A stretch of 42,323 nt of DNA from Escherichia coli (GCF_003334385.1 NZ_QOWN01000038.1); one strand, 5' to 3'; positions 16,701 through 17,377 are shown, counted from the first letter of the stretch. Translations and numbers: made by a program. Notes: generated by a model not told the origin, from the sequence alone.

Positions 16701-16790
16701 GGACGTAAAAAAACCGACTTTGCGTCGGTTTTTTACTTTCCAGCCCTGAGTTGGTGGCTCTGGCTGGAGTGAGAGAGTTCTTATCTAACA
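16701..16790 (-). ncRNA. agrB: AgrB antisense sRNA of the dinQ type I toxin locus (boundaries approximate)
   Basis: First copy of a ~90-bp repeat; on the minus strand it ends in a hairpin (ccgacgcaaagtcgg) plus T7 terminator. Its 3' portion (ctctggctggagtgagagagttcttatctaaca) differs at only 1 of 33 positions from the copy in the dinQ leader (17189-17221). Order arsR-agrB-agrA-dinQ matches recalled K-12 layout. Confidence 0.5.
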
Positions 16791-16931
16791 GCTCAATACT
16801 ATTAGCCAGTGGCTAACATTGCAAGAATTAGCGATTTCTTCAGCTGGCGGAGGGAGCACTTCGGTATATATCGCAGTGACGATTTATATACTTTCACTGG
16901 GTCATCGTCATATTAAGCCTTGTCCGAATCC

Positions 16932-17020
16932 GGATGTAAAAAAACCGACTTTGCGTCGGTTTTTTACTTTCCAGCCCTGAGTTGGTGGCTCTGACTGGAG
17001 TGAGATAGCCATCATCTAAC
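16932..17020 (-). ncRNA. agrA: AgrA antisense sRNA (paralog of AgrB; boundaries approximate)
   Basis: Second repeat copy, 231 bp from the first, with the same minus-strand hairpin plus T-run terminator; more diverged from the dinQ leader copy (ctctgactggagtgagatagccatcatctaacg). Confidence 0.45.
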
Positions 17021-17082
17021 GCATCAATGCTAATACCATACTGAAACTATTGCAAGGACGTGCTGGTTTTATAACCTGCATG

Positions 17083-17102
17083 TACTGTATGATTATCCAG
17101 TT
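17083..17102 (+). promoter_or_regulatory. LexA box (SOS operator) upstream of dinQ
   Basis: TACTGTATGATTATCCAGTT fits the CTGT-N8-ACAG LexA consensus with one half-site mismatch (CCAG); dinQ is a known damage-inducible gene. Confidence 0.6.
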
Positions 17103-17293
17103 GGCTCTGAGGCATTTTCACTCTGGCAATGCGCATAAACGCTTTCAAAGTCCTGGTCAGAAGTACGGGTGGTGCCGTTAACTGATGCTCTGGCCGGAGT
17201 GAGAGAGTTCTTATCTAACAATGAGACATGCGCCGTGACAGGCAGTGGATGAGTAAGCGGATGCATTCTCACTCCATCGCATGGAGAAAACGG

Positions 17294-17377
17294 GTGATTG
17301 ATAAAGCAATCATCGTTCTAGGGGCGTTAATTGCGCTGCTGGAACTGATCCGCTTTCTGCTTCAGCTTCTGAACTGA
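17294..17377 (+). CDS. dinQ: Type I toxin peptide DinQ (27 aa, GTG start)
   Basis: GTG at 17294 preceded by GGAG (17283-17286); translates to VIDKAIIVLGALIALLELIRFLLQLLN then TGA, a single-TM hydrophobic peptide matching the recalled DinQ sequence. Confidence 0.75.
   Translation: MIDKAIIVLGALIALLELIRFLLQLLN

What the first reader, a model, noticed from the sequence alone, without database searches (positions are those of the whole stretch)
16701..17377. dinQ-agrA-agrB type I toxin-antitoxin locus: triplicated repeat with unequal similarity to the toxin leader
Two ~90-bp direct repeats 231 bp apart (16701-16790 and 16932-17020) each end, on the minus strand, in a hairpin plus T-run terminator. 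A third partial copy (17189-17221) sits in the dinQ 5' leader on the opposite strand relative to the sRNAs, so both sRNAs can base-pair with dinQ mRNA. The first copy differs from the leader copy at only 1 of 33 positions; the second is much more diverged, consistent with only one sRNA (AgrB) being the effective antitoxin. A LexA box (17083-17102) and a 27-codon GTG-initiated hydrophobic peptide complete the module.
Basis: partly seen in the sequence, partly recalled or inferred. Interest (0 to 1): 0.5.

Follow-up and report, generated by a model that had tools for sequence, protein, structure and literature searches.

The report
Known E. coli dinQ-agrA-agrB toxin-antitoxin locus
This is the well-studied E. 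coli dinQ/agrAB module, in which a DNA-damage-induced 27-residue membrane toxin is silenced by a small antisense RNA, so the finding is correct but ordinary; comparing other strains showed that which of the two small RNAs matches the toxin message differs between E. coli lineages.

Summary
Window 16555-17430 is the E. coli arsR-gor intergenic region and differs from K-12 MG1655 by one base (17103, dinQ +4).

- **sRNA genes:** Rfam AgrB matches 16705-16788(-), which is K-12 agrB, and 16936-17019(-), which is agrA.
- **Toxin gene:** dinQ is 17294-17377(+), GTG start, 27 aa, and matches NCBIfam toxin_DinQ.
- **Operator:** the LexA box is at 17083-17102.
- **Complementarity:** the 34-nt leader copy (17187-17220) matches the agrB copy at 33/34 and the agrA copy at 26/34. 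Predicted duplex energies are -61 and -46 kcal/mol.

This matches Weel-Sneve 2013 and Kristiansen 2016. AgrB binds the processed +44 dinQ mRNA, closes the Shine-Dalgarno hairpin and triggers RNase III cleavage; AgrA does not.

I did not find the following in the papers searched. An 8-nt patch inside the repeat is polymorphic across 5,426 complete E. coli genomes. It always matches at least one agr copy, but not always the same one.
- The K-12-type leader (agrB cognate) is in 1,682 genomes.
- Leader types that pair best with the dinQ-proximal (agrA-position) or sole copy are in 2,650 genomes.
- A repeat-mediated deletion that removes both promoters is in 813 genomes.

The agrB-agrA spacer also holds a gor-derived fragment.

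The parts
16705..16788 (-). agrB small RNA gene (cognate antitoxin in this allele); 5' tail nt 1-20 unpaired, then two hairpins
   Evidence: Rfam RF02891, 108.4 bits. K-12 agrB b4713 maps to 16707-16788. Fold.
16708..16734 (-). agrB intrinsic terminator hairpin (AAAAAACCGAC / GUCGGUUUUUU)
   Evidence: Palindrome; structure.
16796..16824 (-). agrB promoter: -35 TTGCAA (16819-16824), 17-nt spacer, -10 TAGTAT (16796-16801), 7 nt to +1 at 16788
   Evidence: Read from the sequence. The paper reports consensus-like -10/-35 elements. Not flagged by the scan; my count is an 8/12 hexamer match, below its 9/12 threshold.
16842..16912 (.). gor-derived fragment in the agrB-agrA spacer (resembles gor coding DNA 17622-17697, same orientation)
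   Evidence: Local alignment score 33 against shuffles of 11.6 +/- 1.7, 0/500 reaching it. Clearer in O157-type loci.
16936..17019 (-). agrA small RNA gene (mismatched paralog in this allele)
   Evidence: Rfam RF02891, 106.2 bits. K-12 agrA b4712 maps to 16938-17019. 78/84 identical to AgrB; five of the six differences lie in nt 7-14 and the sixth at nt 26.
17027..17055 (-). agrA promoter: -35 TTGCAA (17050-17055), 17-nt spacer, -10 TAGCAT (17027-17032)
   Evidence: Read from the sequence.
17083..17102 (+). LexA operator TACTGTATGATTATCCAGTT, overlapping the dinQ -10 (TATGAT, 17088-17093) and +1 (17100)
   Evidence: CTGT-N9-CAG match at 17085-17100. Identical to the K-12 operator, published heterology index 4.83.
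17100..17428 (+). dinQ primary transcript (+1 = 17100; +44 processing site = 17143; sequence 1 = 17115-17127)
   Evidence: +1 placed by matching the published numbering (G88, G94-G106, U167-U178, G184-G187, G104/G106/C116/A118) to the sequence. Published length ~330 nt. The 3' end is approximate.
17187..17220 (+). Leader copy of the agr repeat, the AgrB target (dinQ G88-A119 region); polymorphic specificity patch at 17205-17212 (GAGTTCTT)
   Evidence: Published target region and RNase III sites.
17266..17286 (+). SD-sequestering hairpin (sequence 3 = 17266-17277; sequence 4 = 17281-17286, containing SD GGAG at 17283-17286)
   Evidence: Forms in the MFE fold of the +1 RNA; P(unpaired) of the SD is 0.00-0.07. 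Published model.
17294..17377 (+). dinQ coding sequence, GTG start, 27 codons plus stop
   Evidence: NCBIfam NF041472, 54 bits.
17394..17424 (.). 14-bp hairpin between the convergent dinQ and gor genes (putative terminator for both)
   Evidence: (I3). The paper places the dinQ terminator just beyond the gor stop codon.

Best explanation
This is the chromosomal dinQ-agrA-agrB type I toxin-antitoxin module of E. coli, in its K-12-type allele.

Shown by the sequence here: LexA can bind an operator that covers the dinQ -10 and +1. Two divergent sigma-70 promoters read ~84-nt sRNAs whose unstructured 5' tails carry the reverse complement of a 34-nt segment of the dinQ 5' UTR. AgrB matches that segment almost perfectly. 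AgrA differs mainly in an 8-nt patch.

From published experiments on the identical K-12 sequence:
- DNA damage relieves LexA repression.
- The primary +1 transcript is translationally inert, because sequence 1 pairs with sequence 2 and the Shine-Dalgarno sequence sits in hairpin 3:4.
- Removal of the first 43 nt gives the +44 mRNA. Sequence 2 then pairs with sequence 3 and frees the SD, so the 27-aa DinQ peptide is made. It inserts into the inner membrane, depolarises it and lowers ATP.
- AgrB pairs with nt 88-119 of +44 dinQ. This restores the SD hairpin, blocks translation and creates an RNase III substrate.
- AgrA, with its patch mismatches, does none of this.

Inferred: the same holds in the strain this window comes from. 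Its only difference from K-12 (+4 A to G) turns an A-U pair into a G-U pair in the 5' stem.
For: - **Identity to K-12:** 875/876 bases identical to the K-12 arsR-gor region, and K-12 features map exactly. RefSeq annotates dinQ at this place in thousands of genomes.
- **Family matches:** two full-length Rfam AgrB hits at 106-108 bits. NCBIfam toxin_DinQ equivalog, 54 bits against a cut-off of 30.
- **Repeat and complementarity:** 33/34 against 26/34 identity, and -61.2 against -45.6 kcal/mol.
- **Operator:** LexA CTG-N10-CAG overlaps the -10 and +1.
- **Fold:** in silico folding of the +1 RNA reproduces the published 1:2 duplex and the SD hairpin. Blocking nt 88-121 in +44 restores the SD hairpin. 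The +4 SNP changes the energy by 0.3 kcal/mol.
- **Experiments:** PMC3567139, PMC5066626, and compensatory-mutation proof of pairing specificity in the plasmid homolog DqlB-agrB (PMC12365149).
- **Comparative support for the pairing:** in all 26 loci sampled that retain the dinQ promoter, including three other Escherichia species, the polymorphic leader patch matches at least one agr copy with at most 2 mismatches over 31 nt.
Against: - Nothing in the sequence contradicts this reading.
- The MFE fold of +44 did not reproduce the published 2:3 duplex. SD accessibility rose only from about 0.06 to 0.27.
- Expression, processing and toxicity were not and cannot be tested with these tools for this particular strain.
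- The physiological role of DinQ (addiction-type toxin versus SOS effector of membrane and nucleoid functions) remains debated in the literature.
Confidence: 0.97

Rival explanations
1. AgrA is not an inert paralog but a second, weaker regulator of dinQ. It could also be a stored alternative specificity that becomes the antitoxin when the leader patch changes. On this reading the module in this window works with two sRNAs rather than one.
For: - The agrA mutant shows a 3-fold rise of full-length dinQ RNA, and AgrA rises 9.5-fold in an agrB mutant (PMC3567139).
- AgrA can still form 24 Watson-Crick plus 4 G-U pairs of 31.
- The agrA promoter and body are conserved in all two-copy loci.
- In S-, T- and O-type leader lineages the copy at the agrA position is the best match.
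- The K-12 AgrA patch TAGCCATC pairs fully, through 2 G-U, with the T-type leader TAGTCGTC found in other strains (L004, L028, L030).
Against: AgrA did not change the SHAPE pattern of +44 dinQ, did not inhibit its translation in vitro, and its loss did not cause UV sensitivity. The predicted duplex is about 15 kcal/mol weaker than AgrB's.
Confidence: 0.25
2. The repeats are only duplication debris. They would be two leftover terminator-containing segments plus a chance 34-nt match, with no antisense function, and the short GTG ORF would not be translated.
For: The spacer contains a gor-derived fragment, so the region does have a duplication and deletion history. The consensus scans did not flag the agr promoters or terminators.
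Against: - The repeat match has E=3e-11 to 7e-34.
- Covariance-model hits are far above threshold.
- The leader patch co-varies with an agr copy across lineages and species.
- The DinQ peptide is identical in every Escherichia locus whose ORF was translated here, and RefSeq assigns the same protein accession at most other sampled loci.
- Direct experimental proof exists in K-12.
Confidence: 0.01

Closest known systems
dinQ-agrA-agrB of E. coli K-12 MG1655 (b4613, b4712, b4713; Weel-Sneve et al. 2013; Kristiansen et al. 2016)
   Same: Same locus: the same flanking genes (arsR, gor), the same order and strands, identical sRNAs, peptide, LexA box, leader repeat and terminators.
   Different: One substitution, window 17103 G against A in K-12 (dinQ +4). 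This base is A in the 12 other E. coli loci aligned. Only 4 of the 15 best-matching genomes listed match the query at 100%. Predicted to be structurally neutral.
dqlB-agrB (DinQ-like) modules of enterobacterial plasmids, e.g. pOXA-48 (PMC12365149) and the dql family (PMC5066626)
   Same: A homologous toxin and leader architecture, with an AgrB-family sRNA that pairs with a ~35-nt 5' UTR segment. Specificity has been proven by compensatory mutations. Rfam AgrB hits of 54-70 bits lie next to plasmid dinQ/dqlB genes.
   Different: They are plasmid-borne addiction modules; LexA control was not examined here. DNA identity to this locus is about 65-77%. Copy numbers differ: Salmonella IncFII plasmid NZ_CP022492.1 has three tandem agr-like genes between two dqlB genes.
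tisB-istR-1 of E. coli (SOS-induced type I toxin-antitoxin)
   Same: The 2013 paper states that the dinQ-agr locus has many similarities to tisB-istR (abstract). From my own knowledge of tisB-istR: a LexA-controlled toxin, a divergently transcribed trans-acting sRNA from the same intergenic region, an inert primary mRNA activated by 5' processing, sRNA pairing upstream of the ribosome-binding site with RNase III cleavage, and an inner-membrane depolarising peptide.
   Different: Unrelated sequences. tisB-istR has one functional antitoxin sRNA rather than two paralogs, and it uses a ribosome standby site rather than the four-element hairpin switch (own knowledge, not tested here).
Paralog-discriminating type I systems: ibs-sib and zorO-orzO/zorP-orzP
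   Same: Multiple near-identical sRNA paralogs whose specificity is set by a few nucleotides in a short variable region (own knowledge; these families are named).
   Different: In those systems each sRNA has its own toxin gene. Here two sRNAs share one toxin gene, and the toxin leader matches one or the other depending on lineage.

Membership tests
dinQ-agrAB chromosomal type I toxin-antitoxin locus | [quoted passage not shown] | tested here: met
   arsR ORF 16201-16554(-) and gor ORF 17431-18783(-). Gapless alignment to K-12 and mapping of its annotation. The same context is seen in RefSeq genomes.
dinQ-agrAB chromosomal type I toxin-antitoxin locus | 27-aa DinQ peptide from a GTG start with a correctly spaced SD | tested here: met
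   ORF 17294-17377. SD GGAG at 17283-17286, 7 nt before the GTG. NCBIfam NF041472 equivalog, 54 bits against a cut-off of 30.
dinQ-agrAB chromosomal type I toxin-antitoxin locus | AgrB-family sRNA genes (Rfam RF02891) with their own promoter and intrinsic terminator | tested here: met
   Two full-length hits, 108.4 and 106.2 bits, gathering score 40. Promoter hexamers read from the sequence. Terminator hairpins.
dinQ-agrAB chromosomal type I toxin-antitoxin locus | The sRNA 5' tail is complementary to about 31-34 nt of the dinQ 5' UTR, nearly perfect for one sRNA | tested here: met
   AgrB 30/31 Watson-Crick, AgrA 24/31 plus 4 G-U. 33/34 against 26/34 DNA identity. The paper gives 30/31 and 25/31.
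dinQ-agrAB chromosomal type I toxin-antitoxin locus | LexA operator in the dinQ promoter | tested here: met
   TACTGTATGATTATCCAGTT at 17083-17102, identical to the K-12 operator, published HI 4.83. LexA binding itself is not testable here.
dinQ-agrAB chromosomal type I toxin-antitoxin locus | Four-element RNA switch: 1:2 and 3:4 in the +1 RNA (SD closed), 2:3 in the +44 RNA (SD open) | tested here: inconclusive
   The MFE of +1 shows the 1:2 duplex and the SD hairpin. Blocking the AgrB site in +44 restores the SD hairpin. The MFE of free +44 did not show the 2:3 duplex, and P(unpaired) of the SD rose only to 0.27. The sequence elements are identical to K-12, where SHAPE supports the model.
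dinQ-agrAB chromosomal type I toxin-antitoxin locus | Expression of ~85-nt AgrA/AgrB transcripts, UV induction of dinQ, and toxicity and membrane localisation of DinQ | not testable with these tools
   Published for K-12. No transcriptome or wet-lab data exist for this window.
Type I toxin-antitoxin systems (general) | A small hydrophobic toxin peptide whose translation is repressed by an antisense RNA encoded at the same locus | tested here: met
   The peptide is hydrophobic (read from the sequence) and was modelled as a single transmembrane helix in the paper. Antisense complementarity. Repression is shown in the literature.

The most novel reading that the evidence does not exclude
The triplicated repeat behaves as an exchangeable specificity cassette. 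An 8-nt patch (sRNA nt 7-14; window 17205-17212 in the leader) has been swapped among the two agr copies and the dinQ leader, by gene conversion or recombination. As a result, the identity of the cognate antitoxin differs between E. coli lineages.

- The K-12 and window state, in which the arsR-proximal AgrB is cognate and AgrA is mismatched, would be derived and is found in about 31% of complete genomes.
- In about 49% the dinQ-proximal ('agrA'-position) or sole copy is the complement. The single-copy outgroups E. albertii and Escherichia sp. E1V33 show the same arrangement.
- About 15%, including Nissle 1917, carry a repeat-mediated 199-bp deletion that removes both the agr promoter and the dinQ promoter.

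I found no description of this in the papers searched.
Probability: 0.55. Interest if true: 0.45.

Novelty: already known. Interest (0 to 1): 0.2.

Why it matters
For the window itself it matters little. The finding re-identifies a characterised K-12 locus, and its value is as a positive control for the scan.

The comparative by-product is of moderate interest to people working on type I toxin-antitoxin systems and sRNA specificity.
- The standard statement 'AgrB is the antitoxin and AgrA is a non-functional paralog' appears to be lineage-specific.
- The locus offers a natural series of matched and mismatched sRNA-target pairs.
- A sizeable group of genomes, including Nissle 1917, appears to carry a promoterless remnant that RefSeq still annotates as dinQ.

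Tried and rejected
- **LexA 20-mer search:** searching the perfect LexA palindrome with up to 3 mismatches found nothing. By my count the dinQ operator has 5 mismatches to it.
- **Mis-specified spacer:** my first spacer pattern, CTGT-N8-CAG, was wrong and its hits are irrelevant. CTGT-N9-CAG found the site.
- **Consensus scans:** they did not flag the agr promoters, the dinQ promoter or the agr terminators. Promoters and terminators were placed from the sequence and the published maps instead.
- **+44 fold:** the MFE fold of +44 dinQ did not reproduce the published 2:3 duplex. I treat that feature as inconclusive rather than met.
- **Anti-addiction idea:** I tested whether the mismatched AgrA of K-12 types is the cognate of a plasmid dql toxin. 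No plasmid in PLSDB carries its 5' region. The only close hits are three chromosome-sized records (4.8-4.9 Mb) filed as plasmids, plus two Salmonella plasmids at 90% identity. No support.
- **Chance as an explanation for the gor-like spacer similarity:** rejected by the shuffle test.
- **'Two places per genome':** I read the second place per genome as the off-diagonal agrA/agrB repeat match rather than a second locus. This is an inference from how the tool joins pieces; I did not locate the second places.
- **Heterology index:** I did not compute the LexA heterology index myself, lacking the matrix. I cite the published value, since the operator is identical to K-12.

Full report
**What is there**

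Window 16555-17430 lies between an ArsR ORF (16201-16554, minus strand) and a glutathione reductase ORF (17431-18783, minus strand). It aligns without gaps to the arsR-gor intergenic region of E. coli K-12 MG1655. The only difference is window 17103, G against A in K-12. The K-12 annotation maps dinQ to 17294-17377, agrA to 16938-17019 and agrB to 16707-16788. Of 5,426 complete E. coli genomes, 5,423 have a match to the region, and RefSeq names the CDS 'damage-inducible type I toxin DinQ'.

**Check of the observation**

- **Repeats.** The repeat finder gives two 114-nt direct copies, 16691-16804 and 16922-17035, 231 bp apart and 88% identical. It also gives a three-member 34-nt family at 16757-16790, 16988-17021 and 17187-17220. 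Within the 42-kb window these matches have BLAST E-values of 7e-34 (80-nt core, 96% identity) and 3e-11 (leader copy against copy 1).
- **Similarity to the leader.** The leader copy differs from copy 1 at 1 of 34 positions and from copy 2 at 8 of 34.
- **sRNA genes.** Rfam's AgrB model (RF02891) matches both repeats full length on the minus strand, at 108.4 and 106.2 bits (gathering score 40). Each folds into a free 20-nt 5' tail, a first hairpin, and a terminator hairpin AAAAAACCGAC/GUCGGUUUUUU.
- **agr promoters.** The minus strand upstream of each sRNA start reads TTGCAA, a 17-nt spacer, then TAGTAT (agrB) or TAGCAT (agrA), then 7 nt to +1.
- **LexA site.** The only CTG-N10-CAG site in the intergenic region is 17085-17100, inside TACTGTATGATTATCCAGTT at 17083-17102.
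- **Toxin ORF.** The GTG at 17294 opens 27 codons. The peptide MIDKAIIVLGALIALLELIRFLLQLLN scores 54 bits against NCBIfam toxin_DinQ (cut-off 30).

**Which sRNA is cognate here**

| sRNA | Watson-Crick / G-U / mismatch (nt 1-31) | Duplex energy, 31 nt | Duplex energy, 34-nt repeat |
|---|---|---|---|
| AgrB | 30 / 0 / 1 | -53.6 kcal/mol | -61.2 kcal/mol |
| AgrA | 24 / 4 / 3 | -38.1 kcal/mol | -45.6 kcal/mol |

The published counts are 30/31 and 25/31. AgrA and AgrB are 78/84 identical. Five of the six differences fall in nt 7-14 of the 5' tail and the sixth at nt 26.

**Mechanism**

I placed the published numbering on the window by matching named nucleotides. These were G88, G94-G106, U167-U178, the SD at G184-G187, and the RNase III sites 5' of G104, G106, C116 and A118. 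This gives:
- +1 = 17100 and the +44 site = 17143
- sequence 1 = 17115-17127 and sequence 2 = 17193-17205
- sequence 3 = 17266-17277 and the SD = 17283-17286

The LexA box thus covers the -10 (TATGAT, 17088-17093) and +1.

Published experiments on the identical sequence show the following:
- dinQ gives five transcripts, and only +44 is translated.
- The toxic product is the 27-aa GTG peptide in the inner membrane.
- Loss of agrB, but not agrA, gives DinQ-dependent UV sensitivity.
- AgrB binds +44, closes the SD hairpin, blocks translation and directs RNase III cleavage. AgrA does not.

My folds agree in part. The +1 MFE contains the 1:2 duplex and the SD hairpin, with P(unpaired) of the SD at or below 0.07. 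Blocking nt 88-121 in +44 restores that hairpin. Free +44 did not show the published 2:3 duplex, and SD accessibility rose only to 0.27.

The private SNP at +4 changes an A-U pair with U117 into G-U and shifts the energy by 0.3 kcal/mol.

**Comparison with the known**

This is the K-12 locus itself, so the finding is already known. Relatives are the plasmid dql/agrB modules. About 2,700 PLSDB plasmids give a match, mostly at 60-80% identity. The pOXA-48 system has been validated by compensatory mutations in the pairing region. The closest functional analog is tisB-istR-1.

**Beyond the finding: a polymorphic specificity patch**

Aligning representative E. coli loci shows that the dinQ leader is otherwise well conserved. 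An 8-nt patch (17205-17212) carries several alleles that differ at several positions each. The table gives the patch at the arsR-proximal copy, the dinQ-proximal copy and the leader.

| Locus | arsR-proximal agr | dinQ-proximal agr | dinQ leader |
|---|---|---|---|
| window / K-12 type | GAGTTCTT | TAGCCATC | GAGTTCTT |
| SE11 type | GAGTTCTT | ATGCCATT | ATGCCATT |
| L009, L013 | GAGCTCTT | ATGCCATC | GAGTTCTT |
| L007, L010 | GAGCTCTT | ATGCCATC | ATGCCATT |
| L011 | ATGCCCAC | ATGCCATC | ATGCCCAC |
| O157:H7 | ATGCCCAC | ATGCCATC | ATACCATT |
| L012, L022, L029 | GAGCTCTT | TAGTCATC | TAGTCGTC |

So strains with the same pair of sRNAs can have a leader that matches either one.

In all 26 promoter-bearing loci inspected, at least one copy pairs with at most 2 mismatches in 31 nt. 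In two-copy E. coli loci the other copy is 6-17 kcal/mol weaker.

Counts come from allele-specific 49-nt queries, in which any 28-nt seed must cover almost the whole patch:

| Allele | Genomes (of 5,426) |
|---|---|
| K-type leader | 1,682 |
| S-type leader | 1,922 |
| T-type leader | 418 |
| O-type leader | 310 |
| Fused allele | 813 |
| K-12-type AgrB patch in the arsR-proximal context | 2,706 |

At least 1,024 genomes therefore carry a K-12-type AgrB that is mismatched to their own dinQ leader. One example is E2865, where both hits lie in one genome. The dinQ-proximal context carries ATGCCATT in 1,677 genomes and ATGCCATC in 904.

E. albertii and Escherichia sp. E1V33 have a single agr gene at the dinQ-proximal position, cognate through one G-U. 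E. whittamii has two copies that pair about equally well.

I infer that the dinQ-proximal copy was the ancestral antitoxin and that the K-12 state is derived. This is an inference from complementarity and was not tested functionally. The 4-nt mismatch experiment in pOXA-48 and the AgrA data in K-12 make it plausible that patch mismatches abolish repression.

I found no paper holding dinQ, agrA and phylogroup together. The T1TAdb paper only says that it picks the more stable of two predicted asRNAs.

**Structural variants produced by the repeats**

- **Single-copy alleles.** Some genomes have lost exactly one 231-bp unit, giving a 640-bp (L003) or 607-bp (L004) region and a single cognate agr.
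- **Fused allele.** The 408-bp class (L005, L014; the allele also found in Nissle 1917) has a 199-bp deletion between the agr repeat and the leader repeat. The agr body abuts the distal dinQ leader. The agr promoter, the dinQ promoter, the LexA box and roughly the first 95 nt of dinQ are gone, and no promoter-like site is found.
  - The dinQ ORF is still intact and is still annotated.

**Origin of the duplication**

The agrB-agrA spacer at 16842-16912 resembles gor coding DNA at 17622-17697 in the same orientation. The local alignment score is 33, against 11.6 +/- 1.7 for shuffles, with 0 of 500 reaching it. O157-type loci keep an 18-nt exact stretch.

This fits a tandem duplication of an agr-dinQ-gor' unit followed by loss of one dinQ copy. 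The scenario is an inference.

A Salmonella IncFII plasmid shows a comparable multi-copy layout. Three tandem agr-like genes with a 115-116-bp period lie between two dqlB genes whose leaders resemble different agr copies.

**Verdict**

The finding is real, correctly interpreted and already known, so its interest as given is low. The lineage-dependent identity of the cognate sRNA and the promoterless fused allele are the only parts that might be new. They concern other strains, not this window.

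Noticed in passing
window 17205-17212 (leader), 16775-16782 (agrB copy), 17006-17013 (agrA copy); loci L003-L014, L018-L033: An 8-nt patch inside the repeat is polymorphic across E. coli and always matches at least one agr copy, but which copy differs by lineage. The arsR-proximal copy matches with K- and P-type leaders (K = 1,682 genomes). The dinQ-proximal or sole copy matches with S-, T- and O-type leaders (2,650 genomes). 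At least 1,024 genomes carry a K-12-type AgrB that is mismatched to their own leader.
   Followed up: yes
L005 712-872, L014 (same); corresponds to deletion of window ~16998-17196: 813 complete genomes, including Nissle 1917, carry a 199-bp deletion between the agr repeat and the leader repeat. It removes the agr promoter, the dinQ promoter, the LexA box and the first ~95 nt of dinQ. The ORF is intact and still annotated as dinQ.
   Followed up: yes
L003 (640-bp region), L004 (607-bp region): Alleles with a single agr gene, i.e. loss of exactly one 231-bp unit. The remaining copy is cognate to the strain's own leader. In L004 the left neighbour is arsC rather than arsR.
   Followed up: partly
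window 16842-16912 vs 17622-17697: The spacer between agrB and agrA contains a gor-derived fragment in the same orientation as gor (score 33 against shuffles of 11.6 +/- 1.7). This suggests the second agr copy arose by duplication of an agr-dinQ-gor' unit followed by loss of one dinQ.
   Followed up: partly
window 17103: G here, against A in K-12 and in the 12 other E. coli loci aligned (dinQ +4, one base past the LexA 20-mer). Only 4 of the 15 best-matching genomes listed match the query at 100%. Predicted A-U to G-U change with U117, energetically neutral.
   Followed up: yes
window 17061-17080: TGCTGGTTTTATAACCTGCA (CTG-N10-CTG) is a candidate for the second, weak LexA operator (HI 13.82) that the 2013 paper reports close to the main one. 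I could not see the figure, so the placement is my guess.
   Followed up: no
window 17093-17272 (-), 59-aa ORF: Several RefSeq genomes annotate this minus-strand ORF over the dinQ leader as a 'hypothetical protein' (WP_001296816.1, WP_001297979.1). It is antisense to the dinQ 5' UTR and is probably a spurious call.
   Followed up: no
L015 (Salmonella IncFII plasmid NZ_CP022492.1) 580-912: Three tandem AgrB-family genes with a 115-116-bp period lie between two dqlB toxin genes. Each dqlB leader resembles a different agr copy.
   Followed up: partly
window 1308-1421 (-), 7200-7271 (-), 25797-25837 (-): Other Rfam sRNA hits in the window: GadY (150 bits), ES205 (105 bits) and ES036/CssrF (42 bits). 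They are consistent with the acid-fitness-island side of the K-12 map.
   Followed up: no
window 17394-17424: A 14-bp perfect hairpin between the convergent dinQ and gor genes. The scan flags it as a terminator only for the minus (gor) strand; on the dinQ strand the T tail is weak.
   Followed up: no
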